The notes beneath the pieces were generated by a model. That model searched no databases. It was not told where the DNA came from and saw only the letters and a program-made list of their open reading frames with translations. The translations under genes and the position numbers were made by a program. 64,000 nt of DNA. Source: Escherichia coli (lineage in GTDB: Bacteria > Pseudomonadota > Gammaproteobacteria > Enterobacterales > Enterobacteriaceae). Below, in pieces: positions 24,870 through 49,946 of this stretch. Positions within the stretch are counted from its first letter, which is position 1. Each line of letters begins with the position of its first letter. Location of the stretch: the NCBI RefSeq assembly GCF_016903815.1, contig NZ_CP069972.1; one strand, given 5' to 3'.

Positions 24870-25046
24870 ATGAATCTGGTAGACGCCTTTGTCAAAAAAG
24901 TAATATCCGGTCCATATGAAGAATATGGAAAATGGTGGATAGATGTCGAATACATTTCATGGGGTGTTCCCGGGAAAACAAGACTGATGTTTGACTCAAA
25001 GGAGCAGGCACTGGAAGTTAAGGAAGGGTACAAATTTTTAACGTGA
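24870..25046 (+). CDS. Hypothetical small protein (58 aa)
   Basis: A-rich RBS-like stretch before ATG 24870 (inside track ORF 24762..25046); followed by hairpin 25061-25095. Confidence 0.3.
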   Translation: MNLVDAFVKKVISGPYEEYGKWWIDVEYISWGVPGKTRLMFDSKEQALEVKEGYKFLT

Positions 25047-25060
25047 GATCTCTTTTTGTT

Positions 25061-25095
25061 AAAGGGCAGGAAGCGGTAACTCCCTGCCCTTAGTT
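25061..25095 (+). terminator. Terminator-like hairpin
   Basis: AGGGCAGG ... CCTGCCCT perfect 8-bp stem. Confidence 0.4.
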
Positions 25096-25130
25096 ACGTT
25101 TCCAGGCTTATCAGTCGACAAGTTCCCGGA

Positions 25131-25205
25131 TCAGTTCCAGAACAGCAATCAGCGCGTTTGCAACGGCAACTACTGCCCTGAGAACGATGATTAACAGATT
25201 AATCA
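25131..25205 (-). CDS. Candidate type I toxin-like hydrophobic peptide (24 aa, MINLLIIVLRAVVAVANALIAVWN)
   Basis: Not in ORF track (<60 aa); GGAG 8 nt upstream of ATG; almost entirely hydrophobic; sits beside repeated sRNA-like elements. Confidence 0.35.
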
Positions 25206-25277
25206 TCCGCTTCTCCATCACTGGAGGAAATCACCGTTGCTTACTCTTACATTGCCTGTCACAACGGCACTTTCAGT

Positions 25278-25301
25278 GTTAGTTGAAAAGAGACTTCCTC
25301 C
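25278..25301 (+). repeat. Copy 1 of ~24-bp repeat GTTAGTTGAAAAGAGAYTTCCTCC
   Basis: Near-identical to 25465-25488. Confidence 0.6.
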
Positions 25302-25464
25302 TGCCAGAGCACTGAACACAGCACCACCTGTTTGTTCAGCCAGGACTTAAAATCTTGCATCCATAGTCCCGATGGATATCACGGCAGAAGTGTCGCCAGA
25401 CAGAGCTAACCTGCGGATTATAAGGATGGTTGCTATCAAATGAACAGCTCGCTATTATAAGAAC

Positions 25465-25551
25465 GTTAGTTGAAAAGAGATTTCCTCCGGTCAGGGCCAC
25501 CCACTCTGTAACGGAACAGTAAAAAAACCGACCTCACCAGTCGGTTTTTTT
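25465..25551 (+). ncRNA. Candidate ~85-nt small RNA (repeat copy 2 plus terminator)
   Basis: TATTAT -10-like box just upstream; repeat core then strong terminator 25521-25551. Confidence 0.3.
25521..25551. terminator. Bidirectional Rho-independent terminator
   Basis: A7-AACCGAC-loop-GTCGGTT-T7. Confidence 0.65.
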
Positions 25552-25704
25552 ACATCTGTTGTTTCTCAAAATCCGTCCGACATGCCCGTCACACCGGGGA
25601 AACTCATGCTCTGAATCAGAACCAACCATCTCAACTTTGCCGTCTCCTGAAAAAACTGGCACATTCAGTTCGATAACTACCCATAAATACAGAGAGAAAA
25701 TCCG

Positions 25705-25956
25705 ATGTCAGAAAAGTGGAGTAAAGAATTCGACTCTTGCTTTCAGGTGGGGAGCATAGAAGAAATTGCAGATGCTCTCGAGAAACGCAGCGGAAGCGAG
25801 GAAAATGCGTTAGCCATGCTGGCAATGACAGCCTTCACACTCATGACCCGACGTGGTATCTGCGAAATGCAGAACGTGGCCCCCGATGGCAAAGGCATTC
25901 GGCTGGAGCTAATCGGCTTCAGGGAAAATGAAACAATACCGGATACGCTTCATTGA
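25705..25956 (+). CDS. Hypothetical protein (83 aa)
   Basis: Track ORF with weak GAGAG RBS; no recognisable motif. Confidence 0.3.
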   Translation: MSEKWSKEFDSCFQVGSIEEIADALEKRSGSEENALAMLAMTAFTLMTRRGICEMQNVAPDGKGIRLELIGFRENETIPDTLH

Positions 25957-26027: not shown

Positions 26028-26180
26028 TTAACGTTTAACTTCGTAGGCTAACGTTGCCACAAGCACTGTGTTTCCCTGCTGGAGCCGGAGTCCGCAAAGC
26101 GAATCCCTCACCATCCAGACAAAACACAGAATCGTCACACAGATGACGATTAACATCATTAAAAACGTTCGCTGTGGCAT
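26028..26180 (-). CDS. pndA: Hok/Gef-family type I toxin, PndA-like (50 aa)
   Basis: Not in ORF track; translation MPQRTFLMMLIVICVTILCFVWMVRDSLCGLRLQQGNTVLVATLAYEVKR with GGAGG RBS; single TM plus conserved Cys typical of Hok family; hairpin 25996-26018 downstream. Confidence 0.8.
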   Translation of the reverse strand: MPQRTFLMMLIVICVTILCFVWMVRDSLCGLRLQQGNTVLVATLAYEVKR

Positions 26181-26212
26181 CATAGCCCCTCCATTGCCTT
26201 ACGGCGGTTATC

Positions 26213-26295
26213 GGGCTACTATAATGTTGTCTAGGCATTACAGTAGAGCCCTTGGTTGATTGATAAAAAAATCTCCAGGGGCTTTCTGCTGTATA
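26213..26295 (+). ncRNA. Candidate Sok/PndB-like antisense RNA region over the toxin leader
   Basis: TATAAT-like box at 26220-26225; lies antisense to the expected mok/pndC start upstream of pndA; exact ends not determined. Confidence 0.35.
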
Positions 26296-26510
26296 CCGTC
26301 CACAAAACGCTTTCGGCATACAGCCTCAAGCGCCCGCAGCTATTCTAACGACTTTCGTATCGGTAACAATCCTTTTAACCAGCCCCACACATCTTTCGGA
26401 CATGGTGAGTACAAAAGGCTGCGCTCTCGAACATTTGACATTGAAAATGATTCAGGTGACAGCCTGAATGTAGCAGGAGTCCCCGTCCTTCTGGCATAGA
26501 AGATGTCAAC

Positions 26511-26591
26511 GGGCTACTATAATGTCGTTCACGCATTACAGTAGAGCCCTTGGTTGATTGACAAAAATCTCCAGGGGCTTTCTGCTGTATA
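26511..26591 (+). repeat. Second copy (~85% identical) of the sok-like segment
   Basis: GGGCTACTATAATG...CATTACAGTAGAGCCCTTGGTTGATTGA...TCTCCAGGGGCTTTCTGCTGTATA shared with 26213-26295. Confidence 0.6.
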
Positions 26592-26748
26592 TGGTTTAGT
26601 TAACAAAGAGAGCCAGTGTTCCACTGAGCAAAACCAGTAGCTATTCATGCTTACAATTATCTTCTCCATATCTGAAATAACTCAAACAGCCCAATAGAAA
26701 CATATTGTTACATCTAAGATCTTGAAAAGACCTCTTTGAGAAATCAAT

Positions 26749-47406: not shown

Positions 47407-49747
47407 GTGCGACAGGAAGTCGCTTAACGTATTGTTTTACATTGATAAAACCAGCTATCCCATTAGCTGTAGCCTACCGGGACAGGCGTTGCCGGCAACG
47501 GCGGGGTCTGAAGCTCCCGGGACAACGAGAGCCGGGCGTCAGCCCGGGTAATGCCCCGTGAGGGGCTTTACCTTGCTGCAAGCATCATGCGGCAGGAGAG
47601 CAAGGCTGGTCAGAAGGGTTAACACATGTGAACTGTTGATAAACACCGTTATCGGCAACAGGCCAAAGATGCTGACAGGCCTGAACCAAAAGGTACGGGG
47701 TCCGGTTGCTACCTCGCGCACAGGGAGCACATGGGCGCAGAGACCCCCGGTGAAGAGACAGAACCCGCCCTGACCCTCTGTATGTTAAGCGGAACCTGGT
47801 AAACCCGTATCGCTGCCTCACAGGCAGGTGAACCGCAAGGAACACTGTTAGCGGTGCGGGCATAGGAGGACGGAAAAAGCGAATGCCCGGCTGTAATAAC
47901 CGGGATACGGGGCAGGTTCCCCGACGCGAAAGCGGGCAGACTTCCGTCTGGTCTTTAATTGCATGAAAAGCTGTAAAGCAGTCAAAAGGATATCAGCGAG
48001 ATGAATACACACATCAGTGTGTCCACGATACCCCACCCGACAGGCTGGCACACCATAAACTGGAAAGCATGCCATGCCCGGGTGCGAAAGCTACAGTTAC
48101 GGATTGCAAAGGCAACCCGACAGCAACAATGGCGGCAGGTCAGAGAACTACAGCGCATCCTCACCCGCTCATTCTCCGGCAAAGCCGTGGCTGTCAGGCG
48201 TGTAACTGAAAATACCGGTAAAAGGACACCCGGTATTGACGGAAAAATATGGCACACACCGAAGGAGAAATGGGAAGGAATATGCAGCCTGAATCTGTGT
48301 GGTTACAGGCCACAGCCACTACGGCGAATACATATCCCAAAATCAAACGGCAAAACGCGACCGCTGGGCATACCCACAATGAGGGACCGGGCCATGCAGG
48401 CACTGTGGCTGCTGGCTCTGGAACCCGTATCCGAGACCACTGCTGACCATAACAGCTATGGTTTCAGACCAATGCGCAGCACGCATGACGCCATTGAGTC
48501 CATTTTTCTGCGGATGAGCCAGAAAGTATCGCCCAAATGGATACTGGAGGGCGATATTAAAGGGTGCTTCGATAACATCAGCCATGACTGGCTGCTTTCC
48601 CATATTCCGATGGACAGGAGACTGCTTAAAAAATGGTTGAAAGCAGGTTACATGGAAAGAGGCGTGTTTAACCATACGAACAGCGGGACACCGCAGGGAG
48701 GCATCATATCCCCTGTTCTCGCCAACATGGCTCTGGACGGACTGGAGAAGGAACTGATGCAAACGTTCAGGAAAAGTGGTTATCACAGTGCAAAGCACCA
48801 GGTGAATTATGTGAGATATGCTGATGATTTCATCTGTTCAGGCAGCTCCCGTGAATTGCTGGAAAATGAGGTCAGACCACTGATTGCAGCTTTCATGCGC
48901 GAACGAGGGCTGGAACTGTCGGAAGAAAAAACAGCGATCACACATATAGATAAAGGCTTCGACTTTTTAGGGCAGAACGTCAGGAAGTACAACGGTAAAA
49001 TGCTGATTAAACCGTCGAAGAAAAACCTGAAGAACTTCCTCTGTAAAGTCAGAGAAATAATTAAACGCAATCCGACGCTCCCGGCATGGAAACTGATAGG
49101 CCAGCTAAACCCGGTGATCCGGGGATGGGCTACCTATCACCGACACGTCGTGGCGAAAGAAACATTTAATTATGTCGACACCCAAATCTGGCGAGCTATA
49201 TGGCGATGGTGTGTAAGACGGCATCCCCGGAAAGGATTGCGGTGGATCGCCGGACGATACTTCTCCTTTGAAGGCAGGCGCTGGATCTTTAAAGCCATAA
49301 CCCCGGAAGGGAAAATTCTGACACTCTTCCGGGCAATGGAAACACCGATAAAGCGCCATATAAAAATCAAAGGCGAAGCAACACCATACACCCCCGGAAT
49401 GGAAATCTACTTTGAACGTCGTCTGGATCTAATCTGGAAAGGCAAATCAAAGAAGATGAAGACAGTAGTTCAACTCTGGAAGAGGCAGGGGAAACACTGT
49501 CCGCAGTGCGGACAACTCATAACCAACCAGACCGGATGGAATATACATCACCGGATCAGGAAAGTTATGGGCGGCAGTGACGAACTGACCAATCTCGAGT
49601 TGTTACATCCGAACTGCCACCGACAGTTACACAGCAGGGAAGCCGGTGCTCACCGAAAGCACTTATAAAGGCTTGAGCGGAGTGCGGGGAAACTCGCACG
49701 CTCCGTTCTTAGGGGGCGGCGGCGCAGCAATGTGCCGCTGCTACCCG
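47407..49747 (+). mobile_element. Group II intron (boundaries approximate)
   Basis: 5' GTGCG at 47407; ORF in domain IV; domain V-like 34-nt hairpin 49675-49708; domain VI-like stem to ~49747. Confidence 0.8.
48001..49668 (+). CDS. Group II intron-encoded reverse transcriptase/maturase with HNH endonuclease (555 aa)
   Basis: RT motifs incl. YADD; maturase X region; C-terminal HNH (HCPQCG...HHRIRKVMGG...HPNCHRQLH). Confidence 0.9.
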   Translation: MNTHISVSTIPHPTGWHTINWKACHARVRKLQLRIAKATRQQQWRQVRELQRILTRSFSGKAVAVRRVTENTGKRTPGIDGKIWHTPKEKWEGICSLNLCGYRPQPLRRIHIPKSNGKTRPLGIPTMRDRAMQALWLLALEPVSETTADHNSYGFRPMRSTHDAIESIFLRMSQKVSPKWILEGDIKGCFDNISHDWLLSHIPMDRRLLKKWLKAGYMERGVFNHTNSGTPQGGIISPVLANMALDGLEKELMQTFRKSGYHSAKHQVNYVRYADDFICSGSSRELLENEVRPLIAAFMRERGLELSEEKTAITHIDKGFDFLGQNVRKYNGKMLIKPSKKNLKNFLCKVREIIKRNPTLPAWKLIGQLNPVIRGWATYHRHVVAKETFNYVDTQIWRAIWRWCVRRHPRKGLRWIAGRYFSFEGRRWIFKAITPEGKILTLFRAMETPIKRHIKIKGEATPYTPGMEIYFERRLDLIWKGKSKKMKTVVQLWKRQGKHCPQCGQLITNQTGWNIHHRIRKVMGGSDELTNLELLHPNCHRQLHSREAGAHRKHL

Positions 49748-49946
49748 ACCAATAAAAGACAGCCAGAAACGGTGACAGTGTCACGGAATATCACACCTGT
49801 TCCCTGCATACAGCCATACACTACCTTCTGACCGGAAAGCCGGGCCGGCAGCGCCGCAGGCGCTGCACCCCGCGTTTCCGGCAGGCGTCAGCCTGCCAGG
49901 GGTTTTCGCGCGGGCTGACAGGCGGCCTCCACCGCCTGCCCCTGTA

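What the first reader, a model, noticed from the sequence alone, without database searches (positions are those of the whole stretch)
25100..25560. 24-aa hydrophobic peptide gene flanked by two repeated sRNA-like elements (type I toxin-antitoxin candidate)
Seen: a - strand mini-ORF (25131..25205) with a GGAG SD encodes MINLLIIVLRAVVAVANALIAVWN. On the opposite strand, 70-340 bp into its expected 5' UTR, a ~24-bp motif (GTTAGTTGAAAAGAGAYTTCCTCC) occurs twice (25278, 25465); the second copy is followed by a strong terminator (25521-25551), predicting an ~85-nt antisense RNA. A 1-nt shift near 25136-25140 would extend the peptide with ...LELIRELVD. Established: type I toxins are short hydrophobic peptides controlled by antisense sRNAs, and the chromosomal dinQ/agrAB locus uses two repeated sRNA genes. 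Inference: an unannotated type I TA-like module; the current frame may be a frameshifted derivative.
Basis: partly seen in the sequence, partly recalled or inferred. Interest (0 to 1): 0.65.

Follow-up and report, generated by a model that had tools for sequence, protein, structure and literature searches.

The report
Known DqlB–AgrB plasmid toxin-antitoxin module
This is an intact copy of the already described DqlB–AgrB type I toxin–antitoxin (plasmid addiction) module on an IncI1-type plasmid, with one antitoxin RNA gene rather than two and no frameshift, so it is real but ordinary.

Summary
The sequence features are real, but two details were misread. The minus-strand mini-ORF is intact. 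It runs 25206..25111 and encodes 31 aa, MINLLIIVLRAVVAVANALIAVLELIRELVD. The "24-aa ...AVWN / frameshift" was a reading slip. The peptide matches NCBIfam NF041473 "DinQ-like type I toxin DqlB" (67 bits, cutoff 35), and RefSeq annotates it as dqlB in identical plasmids.

The second repeat copy plus its terminator (25465-25553, +) matches Rfam AgrB (55.3 bits, gathering score 40) and has its own promoter-like site. The first copy (25278-25310) is not a second sRNA gene. It has no promoter-like site, no terminator and no Rfam match. It lies where the mapped AgrB target lies in E. coli dinQ mRNA, 73 nt from the start codon against 75 in K-12. In 10 other loci examined, sRNA and target change together.

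The dql family was named in 2016. DqlB–agrB was shown to be a toxic, agrB-neutralised addiction module on pOXA-48 and pOXA-484 in 2025, with IncI1 carriage reported. Function of this allele is inferred by homology.

Verdict: already known, low interest. One side observation may merit follow-up: toxin-less agrB genes of several specificities on related plasmids.

The parts
25111..25206 (-). dqlB coding sequence: 31 aa MINLLIIVLRAVVAVANALIAVLELIRELVD plus TGA stop, a single hydrophobic helix with an acidic C-terminal tail
   Evidence: The ORF list and translation show an intact frame. It matches NCBIfam NF041473 DqlB at 67 bits (cutoff 35). PGAP annotates dqlB at the same position in a 100% identical plasmid. 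Differences from homologues fall mainly at third codon positions, e.g. L006 10 synonymous vs 2 non-synonymous codons. GRAVY is 1.89.
25213..25216 (-). Shine-Dalgarno sequence GGAG, 6 nt upstream of the ATG ('sequence 4' of the dinQ model)
   Evidence: Read directly from the sequence. The GGAG is present, with only slightly shifted alignment positions, in 10 of the 11 aligned loci including K-12 dinQ; L004 has GGGA instead.
25223..25232 (-). Anti-SD element GAUUUCCUCC ('sequence 3'). It can pair either with the SD (closed hairpin) or with GGAGGAAGUC inside the AgrB target ('sequence 2').
   Evidence: the repeat finder reports inverted repeat I1. RNAduplex gives a 10-bp 2:3 helix. The SD is sequestered by CUCC 25226..25223 when the target is blocked.
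25278..25310 (-). AgrB target site in the dqlB 5' UTR (mRNA positions 101-133). It contains sequence 2, GGAGGAAGUC.
   Evidence: It is a 33-nt direct repeat of the AgrB 5' end: 29/34 Watson-Crick plus 3 G-U pairs. It lies 73 nt from the start codon, against 75 nt for the mapped dinQ target G88-A119 (PMC5066626). sRNA and target co-vary in 10 other loci examined. There is no Rfam hit, no promoter-like site and no terminator for a + strand RNA here.
25383..25390 (-). Putative 'sequence 1' (CUUCUGCC, mRNA +21..+28). It can pair with GGCAGGAG of the target region and so lock the full-length mRNA.
   Evidence: RNAduplex of the mRNA 5' end against the target region gives -24.9 kcal/mol. The position is homologous to dinQ U16-C28 in the alignment. 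This assignment is inferred only.
25417..25422 (-). dqlB promoter -10 hexamer TATAAT. The inferred transcription start is G at 25410 (GTTAGCTCTG...). The -35 is weak.
   Evidence: The alignment with K-12 dinQ places the -10 and the conserved GTTAGCTCTG start at the mapped dinQ +1. The consensus promoter scan did not flag it, because the -35 is poor.
25055..25410 (-). Inferred full-length dqlB mRNA of about 350 nt: 204-nt 5' UTR, ORF and terminator hairpin (25062-25091)
   Evidence: It is homologous over its whole length to dinQ mRNA. The terminator hairpin folds at -22.4 kcal/mol and keeps its pairing through compensatory changes across loci.
25430..25458 (+). agrB promoter-like site, TTGCTA-17-TATTAT, back-to-back with the dqlB promoter
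   Evidence: Found by the promoter scan. Comparable -35/-10 pairs can be read by eye upstream of agrB in two other loci, L005 and L007 (first columns).
25465..25553 (+). agrB antitoxin sRNA of about 88 nt: single-stranded 5' tail (nt 1-21), a small stem, and an intrinsic terminator (25519-25553)
   Evidence: It matches Rfam RF02891 AgrB at 55.3 bits (gathering score 40), E = 1e-7, over the full model length. The terminator was found. The fold and the -55.5 kcal/mol duplex with the mRNA come (shuffled controls -25.4 +/- 3.1).

Best explanation
The locus is a complete DqlB–AgrB type I toxin–antitoxin (post-segregational killing) module on an IncI1-type conjugative plasmid, lying between excA and pndA/trbA.

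Proposed mechanism (the steps are inferred here; see the last paragraph):
1. A promoter with a perfect -10 (25422..25417) but a weak -35 makes an mRNA of about 350 nt on the minus strand, starting at about 25410.
2. In the full-length mRNA, a 5' segment pairs with 'sequence 2' (GGCAGGAGGAAGUC, inside 25278-25310). This leaves the anti-SD element (25232..25223) free to close the Shine-Dalgarno sequence, so the mRNA is stable but untranslated.
3. 5' processing would free sequence 2 to capture the anti-SD element. That would open the ribosome-binding site and allow synthesis of the 31-aa membrane peptide.
4. A stronger promoter transcribes AgrB (25465-25553, + strand) divergently, 55 bp away. AgrB does not overlap the mRNA. 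Its single-stranded first ~34 nt are a direct-repeat copy of the target, so it pairs in trans with mRNA nt 101-133.
5. That pairing sequesters sequence 2, re-closes the SD hairpin and, as in dinQ, probably creates an RNase III substrate.
6. When the plasmid is lost, the short-lived AgrB would decay first, the mRNA would be translated, and the cell would be killed.

Shown by others, on homologues: toxicity of DqlB, rescue by agrB and plasmid stabilisation on pOXA-48 and pOXA-484; the RNA switch and RNase III cleavage for dinQ.

Inferred for this allele: the transcription starts, mRNA processing, the relative RNA half-lives and killing.
For: - **Toxin family.** NCBIfam DqlB equivalog, 67 bits against a cutoff of 35.
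- **Antitoxin family.** Rfam AgrB, 55.3 bits against a gathering score of 40, full model length.
- **Existing annotation.** dqlB is annotated in 100% identical IncI1/B/O plasmids.
- **The repeat is not chance.** Two copies found, none expected.
- **Target position.** The target lies 73 nt from the ATG. The range across the 10 other loci with a located AgrB, K-12 dinQ among them, is 72-78 nt. It is 70-71 nt in the IncL/M pOXA-48-type loci, where the target-to-agrB spacing is 188-190 nt against 187 nt here.
- **Co-variation.** The 5' ~22 nt of AgrB and the target differ between lineages but change together. Cognate duplexes are mostly -56 to -70 kcal/mol (L009 -46.4). Duplexes between different specificity groups are mostly about -25 to -45 kcal/mol.
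- **Homology to dinQ mRNA.** The whole mRNA aligns with dinQ mRNA, from the -10 and +1 to the terminator.
- **Predicted pairing.** The AgrB 5' tail is predicted single-stranded, and its duplex with the mRNA is -55.5 kcal/mol against -25.4 +/- 3.1 for shuffles. Blocking the target closes the SD in silico, with P(unpaired) of 0.07 or less at every SD base.
- **Coding signature.** Substitutions in the ORF show third-position bias.
- **Literature.** The dql family and its 5' UTR switch are described in PMC5066626. DqlB toxicity, agrB rescue, a 35-nt 5' UTR target and carriage in 67.4% of IncI1 plasmids are reported in PMC12365149. Toxicity and plasmid stabilisation by IncX3 agrB-dqlB are reported in PMC12317039.
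Against: - No transcript or toxicity data exist for this exact allele.
- Thermodynamic folding did not reproduce the 'closed in +1, open after processing' contrast. In both forms the MFE also pairs the SD with CUCU in the target region, so the open state is not supported in silico.
- The dqlB promoter has a poor -35, and the consensus scan did not call it.
- Complementarity here (29 Watson-Crick + 3 G-U of 34) is somewhat lower than in several homologues (32/34).
- Rfam did not detect agrB in the IncL/M loci, so the sRNA family is more heterogeneous than the Rfam model.
Confidence: 0.9

Rival explanations
1. One reading: two repeated antisense sRNA genes, AgrA-like at 25278 and AgrB-like at 25465, both control the toxin, as in chromosomal dinQ/agrAB.
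For: The 33-nt repeat is real. K-12 does carry two sRNA genes, agrA and agrB, both matching the Rfam AgrB model.
Against: - Copy 1 has no promoter-like site, no terminator and no Rfam match even at E <= 1.
- K-12 has three copies of the repeat: the target plus agrA plus agrB. The window has two. Copy 1 aligns with the K-12 target, 73 vs 75 nt from the start codon, not with agrA.
- Most of the plasmid loci examined have a single AgrB near their dqlB.
- An independent search of IncX3 plasmids also found no agrA (PMC12317039).
Confidence: 0.04
2. The module is an SOS (LexA)-controlled stress-response toxin like chromosomal dinQ, rather than a constitutive addiction module.
For: A CTG-N10-CAG site (ACCTGTTTGTTCAGCCAGGA) lies at 25326-25345. 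The identical sequence was predicted as an SOS box for dqlB on plasmid pTF2, with heterology index 11.64 (PMC12211044).
Against: - The site lies at about +66..+85, inside the transcribed 5' UTR, in a stem-loop segment conserved across the family, not at the promoter.
- The K-12 LexA box overlapping the dinQ -10/+1 is not conserved here: CTG is replaced and no CTG-N10-CAG lies at the promoter.
- The pTF2 study did not detect DqlB in its proteomic analysis, so it provides no evidence of SOS induction.
- pOXA-48 DqlB-agrB acts as an addiction module.
Confidence: 0.08
3. The locus is a decayed, non-functional remnant: a frameshifted or silenced toxin with a leftover sRNA.
For: Related plasmids do exist that have lost dqlB and kept agrB.
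Against: - The ORF is intact, and its start, stop and length are the same as in the validated homologues.
- The SD, -10, terminator and target complementarity are all present.
- The 551-bp locus is at least 99% identical in 310 complete-genome E. coli records and 478 PLSDB plasmids.
Confidence: 0.04

Closest known systems
DqlB–agrB of pOXA-48 (IncL) and pOXA-484 (IncX3), plasmid type I TA / addiction modules (PMC12365149, PMC12317039)
   Same: - The peptide has the same length and family, with 25/31 residues identical to the pOXA-48-type peptide and 24-25/31 to the IncX3 ones.
- The layout is the same: the toxin on one strand and a divergent, non-overlapping agrB.
- The target lies 70-78 nt from the ATG.
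- The target-to-agrB repeat spacing is 187 nt here and 188-190 nt in the IncL/M loci.
   Different: - The recognition sequence differs (GTTAGTTGAAAAGAGA... here, GTCAATTGTTTAG... in IncL/M), so cross-neutralisation is not expected.
- The IncL/M agrB is shorter, lacks the middle stem and is missed by Rfam.
- The genomic neighbourhood differs: excA/pndA/trbA here, trbC/repA in pOXA-48.
- This allele has not been tested experimentally.
Chromosomal dinQ–agrAB of E. coli K-12 (PMC3567139, PMC5066626)
   Same: - The mRNA is homologous from the -10/+1 to the terminator.
- The AgrB target occupies the same position.
- The sequence 2/3/4 elements are present, and the LELIR peptide motif is shared.
- AgrB matches the same Rfam family.
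   Different: - There is no LexA box at the promoter.
- There is no agrA paralogue.
- The peptide is 31 aa with an ATG start and an acidic tail, against 27 aa with a GTG start. It scores only 20.7 bits on the DinQ model, below the cutoff of 30.
- It is plasmid-borne, so its likely role is plasmid maintenance rather than the DNA-damage response.
tisB–istR-1 and zorO–orzO (type I TA with a long 5' UTR and a trans-acting divergent sRNA)
   Same: The logic is the same: an inert primary mRNA, a target upstream of the ribosome-binding site, and a divergent, non-overlapping sRNA. There is a weak Rfam OrzO-P match over the agrB terminator region (33.6 bits).
   Different: There is no sequence homology of the toxin. 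The OrzO-P score is far below its gathering score of 60. The tisB ribosome-standby mechanism differs from the dinQ-type SD switch (PMC5066626).
hok/sok-type pndA module 800 bp away in the same window (26028-26335)
   Same: It is also a plasmid type I post-segregational killing system, with a small membrane toxin and an antisense RNA (Rfam sok 134 bits).
   Different: It is an unrelated family. Sok is cis-encoded and overlaps the mok/hok leader, whereas AgrB is trans-encoded through a direct repeat.

Membership tests
DqlB–AgrB (dinQ-like) type I toxin–antitoxin family | Small (~31 aa) single-helix hydrophobic peptide matching the DqlB profile | tested here: met
   NCBIfam NF041473 equivalog at 67 bits (cutoff 35), covering residues 1-31 of 31. 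The ...LELIR... motif is shared with all homologues.
DqlB–AgrB (dinQ-like) type I toxin–antitoxin family | AgrB-type sRNA gene next to the toxin gene, divergent and non-overlapping, with its own promoter and intrinsic terminator | tested here: met
   Rfam RF02891 at 55.3 bits (gathering score 40), full length, at 25466-25553 on the + strand. Promoter-like site TTGCTA-17-TATTAT and a 14-bp terminator were found.
DqlB–AgrB (dinQ-like) type I toxin–antitoxin family | About 31-36 nt of the AgrB 5' end complementary to the toxin 5' UTR, upstream of the ribosome-binding site | tested here: met
   29 Watson-Crick + 3 G-U pairs of 34, at mRNA nt 101-133, 73 nt from the ATG. This position is conserved, and the sRNA and target sequences co-vary in the 10 other loci examined.
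DqlB–AgrB (dinQ-like) type I toxin–antitoxin family | 5' UTR homologous to dinQ, with mutually exclusive pairings 1:2, 2:3 and 3:4 that gate the SD | tested here: inconclusive
   The UTR aligns with dinQ over its whole length. The 2:3 helix (10 bp) and the 3:4 SD hairpin are predicted, and 1:2 pairing is possible. However, MFE folding does not give an open SD in the truncated form.
DqlB–AgrB (dinQ-like) type I toxin–antitoxin family | Peptide toxic on expression; agrB neutralises it; the module stabilises the plasmid | not testable with these tools
   Shown only for the pOXA-48 and pOXA-484 homologues (PMC12365149, PMC12317039).
dinQ–agrAB proper (chromosomal SOS-regulated locus) | LexA operator overlapping the toxin promoter | tested here: not met
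   The K-12 box TACTGTATGATTATCCAGTT lies at the dinQ +1. The homologous window sequence has no CTG-N10-CAG. The only such site is inside the 5' UTR, at 25328-25343.
dinQ–agrAB proper (chromosomal SOS-regulated locus) | Two paralogous sRNA genes, agrA and agrB | tested here: not met
   There is one AgrB hit in the 64-kb window, against two in K-12. The other repeat copy is the mRNA target.
dinQ–agrAB proper (chromosomal SOS-regulated locus) | Peptide matches the DinQ equivalog model | tested here: not met
   NF041472 scores 20.7 bits, below its cutoff of 30.

The most novel reading that the evidence does not exclude
The AgrB/target recognition sequence may have diversified into discrete specificity groups among otherwise syntenic IncI/K/B/O/X/L/M plasmids. 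Some plasmids also carry toxin-less 'orphan' agrB genes of two or three different specificities, including the one found in this window: p33822-2, pSTU288-1 and pECY44-2.

If those orphan sRNAs are expressed, they would act as anti-addiction elements. They would disarm the DqlB killing of competing plasmids, which would make the agrB 5' tail an arms-race determinant in plasmid-plasmid competition. This window's module would then be one allele in such a system. It would be cross-protected by the IncK2/Z and some IncI1/B/O agrB genes (same specificity group) and vulnerable to the orphan copies.
Probability: 0.3. Interest if true: 0.55.

Novelty: already known. Interest (0 to 1): 0.15.

Why it matters
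The module itself has practical relevance but is not new. DqlB–AgrB is a widespread addiction system on conjugative resistance plasmids. At least 5000 PLSDB records match this locus in a distant search, and dqlB is reported in 67% of IncI1 plasmids (PMC12365149). It helps explain why such plasmids persist without selection and why plasmid-curing strategies kill cells.

The refined anatomy for the IncI1 allele (a single sRNA, the target site, back-to-back promoters, no LexA box at the promoter) gives coordinates for annotation and for designing agrB-based rescue or curing tools.

The only part that might add knowledge is the side observation of specificity groups and orphan agrB genes.

Tried and rejected
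- **Frameshift idea.** Rejected. Direct translation gives the full 31-aa peptide.
- **Second sRNA at 25278.** Rejected. There is no promoter-like site, terminator or covariance-model hit, and the site is positionally homologous to the dinQ target.
- **LexA control at the promoter.** A pattern search found only a site inside the UTR. I treat the published pTF2 'SOS box' as probably a by-product of a conserved RNA stem.
- **Thermodynamic test of the +1/processed switch.** Folding the full-length, truncated and target-blocked mRNA supported only the 'AgrB-bound = SD closed' state. The free truncated form did not come out open, so I do not claim the switch is demonstrated here.
- **Consensus promoter scan.** It did not find the dqlB promoter. 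That promoter is assigned by alignment to dinQ only.
- **Rfam on the IncL/M loci.** It found no AgrB. I located the sRNA there by direct-repeat search instead.
- **Not used.** I did not run the large protein or metagenome searches or structure prediction, because curated family models and the literature already settle identity.

Full report
**1. What is in the sequence**

On the minus strand, an ATG at 25206..25204 follows a GGAG Shine-Dalgarno sequence (25216..25213). It opens a 31-codon frame that ends at TGA 25113..25111, which is followed immediately by TAA. The peptide is MINLLIIVLRAVVAVANALIAVLELIRELVD. An in-frame GTG at 25221 would add five residues.

The real sequence already encodes LELIRELVD, so there is no frameshift.

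The 24-nt motif is real. It occurs exactly twice in the 64-kb window, at 25278 and 25465 on the + strand, with none expected in shuffles even when 3 mismatches are allowed. The repeat extends to 33 nt at 88% identity. A 14-bp hairpin followed by a T run lies at 25519-25553, and a TTGCTA-17-TATTAT promoter-like site at 25430-25458 sits just upstream of copy 2.

**2. Identity**

- The peptide matches the curated NCBIfam equivalog NF041473, 'DinQ-like type I toxin DqlB', at 67 bits (cutoff 35) over its whole length. It matches the DinQ model only weakly, at 20.7 bits against a cutoff of 30.
- Copy 2 plus its terminator (25466-25553) matches Rfam RF02891 AgrB over the full model, at 55.3 bits against a gathering score of 40.
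- The 551-bp locus is 100% identical to many E. coli plasmids in which RefSeq annotates the ORF as dqlB. One is pSF-468-2, typed IncI1/B/O, where the locus lies between excA and a Hok/Gef (pndA) gene and trbA.

**3. Literature**

- Kristiansen et al. 2016 (PMC5066626) named the dql (dinQ-like) genes, dqlA and dqlB. They found them on chromosomes and plasmids of Enterobacteriaceae and described their conserved 5' UTR switch.
- In 2025, DqlB–agrB of pOXA-48 (IncL) was shown to be toxic, to be neutralised by agrB and to cause death on plasmid loss. That paper describes a 35-nt 5' UTR target complementary to agrB and reports dqlB in 67.4% of IncI1 plasmids (PMC12365149).
- The IncX3 pOXA-484 locus was validated independently as toxic and plasmid-stabilising. 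That study found agrB but no agrA (PMC12317039).

The module is therefore already known, both in annotation and experimentally, although this IncI1 allele itself has not been tested.

**4. One sRNA gene, not two**

I fetched the K-12 dinQ-agrAB locus and twelve plasmid loci of types IncI-gamma/K1, K2/Z, I1/B/O, X3, X4, X5 and L/M. Most loci have a single AgrB hit near their dqlB, K-12 has two (agrA and agrB), and the IncL/M loci have none.

In every locus where an AgrB was located, the first ~34 nt of the cognate AgrB are a direct repeat of a site that starts 72-78 nt from the toxin start codon. In K-12 that distance is 75 nt, and the site is the experimentally mapped AgrB target, G88-A119 of dinQ mRNA. 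In the window it is 73 nt, which is repeat copy 1.

The 5' ~22 nt differ strongly between lineages, but the sRNA and the target change together (target form first where the two differ):
- window: GTTAGTTGAAAAGAGAC/T...
- L003: GTCAGTTATAGACAGTTC...
- L007: GCTAGATAC/TAGAGCG...
- L008: GTTGGATGTAGAGTA/G...
- K-12: GTTAGATAAGAACTCTC...

Cognate duplex energies are mostly -56 to -70 kcal/mol, with L009 weakest at -46.4. Duplexes between members of different specificity groups are mostly about -25 to -45 kcal/mol.

In the pOXA-48-type IncL/M loci, Rfam misses the shorter agrB. A direct-repeat search there finds the target 70-71 nt from the ATG and the sRNA copy 188-190 nt further on, against 187 nt in the window.

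Copy 1 in the window has no promoter-like site, no terminator and no covariance-model hit even at E <= 1. It is therefore the target within the dqlB 5' UTR, not an AgrA-like gene.

**5. Anatomy of the toxin mRNA**

The minus strand aligns with dinQ mRNA over its full length.
- A perfect TATAAT (25422..25417) aligns with the dinQ -10.
- The conserved GTTAGCTCTG that begins the mapped dinQ +1 transcript starts at 25410. This gives a 204-nt 5' UTR, against 194 nt in dinQ.
- A terminator hairpin lies at 25091..25062. Its pairing is kept through compensatory changes across loci.
- The -35 is poor, and the consensus scan did not call this promoter.
- The K-12 LexA box that overlaps the dinQ -10/+1 is not conserved. 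The only CTG-N10-CAG in the locus lies inside the UTR, at 25328-25343. [quoted passage not shown]
- The dqlB and agrB start sites are 55 bp apart, back to back.

**6. Mechanism**

The elements of the published dinQ switch can be recognised:
- Sequence 2 (GGAGGAAGUC, within the target) forms a 10-bp helix with sequence 3 (GAUUUCCUCC, 25232..25223).
- Sequence 3 can alternatively close the SD.
- A 5' segment (CUUCUGCC, +21..+28, together with the 5' GUUAG) can pair with the target region.
- AgrB is predicted to have a single-stranded 5' tail of 21 nt. Its duplex with the mRNA is -55.5 kcal/mol, against -25.4 +/- 3.1 for shuffled controls.
- When the target is made unavailable, mimicking bound AgrB, the SD is fully sequestered by the anti-SD element, with P(unpaired) of 0.07 or less at every SD base.

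The folding programme did not give an open SD for the truncated free mRNA. The activation step therefore rests on homology to dinQ, not on my computation.

The ORF behaves as a coding sequence. Differences from homologues are concentrated at third codon positions, for example 10 synonymous against 2 non-synonymous codons for L006.

**7. Verdict**

It is already known, already annotated and experimentally validated in sister plasmids. Interest is low.

**8. Side observations**

Related plasmids carry agrB genes without a toxin.
- p33822-2 has the window's synteny but lacks dqlB, and has two agrB genes of different specificities.
- pSTU288-1 has two orphan agrB genes.
- pECY44-2 has dqlB, a cognate agrB and the same two extra agrB genes.
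- One orphan class has this window's specificity.

This suggests a possible anti-addiction role for orphan agrB genes and discrete specificity groups. I did not pursue it further, and I did not see it mentioned in the passages of the papers I read.

Noticed in passing
L016 1475-1808 (NZ_CP051343 p33822-2); L017 1515-1975 (CP004058 pSTU288-1); L004 1015-1728 (CP069703 pECY44-2): Some related plasmids carry orphan agrB genes. p33822-2 has the same excA-HEAT-hypothetical synteny as the window but no dqlB, and two agrB genes with different 5' recognition sequences. pSTU288-1 has two agrB genes and no dqlB in the fetched stretch. pECY44-2 has dqlB, a cognate agrB and the same two extra agrB genes. 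One orphan class has the window's specificity (GTTAG[C/T]TGAAAAGAGATTTCCTCC). They may act as anti-addiction elements.
   Followed up: partly
loci L002-L011 against window 25278-25310 / 25465-25498: AgrB/target recognition sequences fall into discrete groups by predicted duplex energy: {window, IncK2/Z L005, IncI1/B/O L006}, {L003}, {L004 cognate}, {K-12}, {L007}, {IncX L008, L010, L011}, {L009}. L003 is syntenic with the window and 81% identical overall, yet has a completely different recognition sequence.
   Followed up: partly
L006 1-67 and 656-751, with agrB at 329-416 and 1058-1145 (NZ_AP025678 pRb23_1): Two dqlB genes lie in tandem on one IncI1/B/O plasmid and encode the same protein. 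The two neighbouring agrB genes have different 5' sequences.
   Followed up: no
window 26028-26335 (-) and 26484-26691 (-): A pndA/Hok-family toxin ORF (26028-26183) has a full sok/hok-leader Rfam match (134 bits). About 300 bp further on there is a second, degenerate sok-like element (38 bits, below the gathering score of 59) with an 84-nt insertion and no matching toxin ORF. It looks like a remnant duplicate. The plasmid thus carries two different type I killing systems within 1.3 kb.
   Followed up: no
window 25328-25343 (+): A CTG-N10-CAG LexA-like site lies inside the dqlB 5' UTR, about +68..+83 of the inferred mRNA, in a conserved stem-loop segment. It is identical to the 'SOS box' predicted for dqlB on pTF2 (PMC12211044). 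It is not at the promoter, and its significance is doubtful.
   Followed up: partly
window 47451-47600 and 49673-49749 (+): Rfam matches to group II intron domains D1-D4 (122 bits) and to the group II catalytic intron model RF00029 (60 bits) lie about 2.2 kb apart. This indicates a complete group II intron inserted in the plasmid.
   Followed up: no
window 24871-25046 (+) and 25705-25956 (+): Two small conserved hypothetical ORFs (58 aa and 83 aa; WP_001054898 and WP_001291964 in RefSeq) flank the dqlB-agrB module. The first ends 16 bp before the hairpin at 25062-25091, which it appears to share with dqlB as a bidirectional terminator.
   Followed up: no
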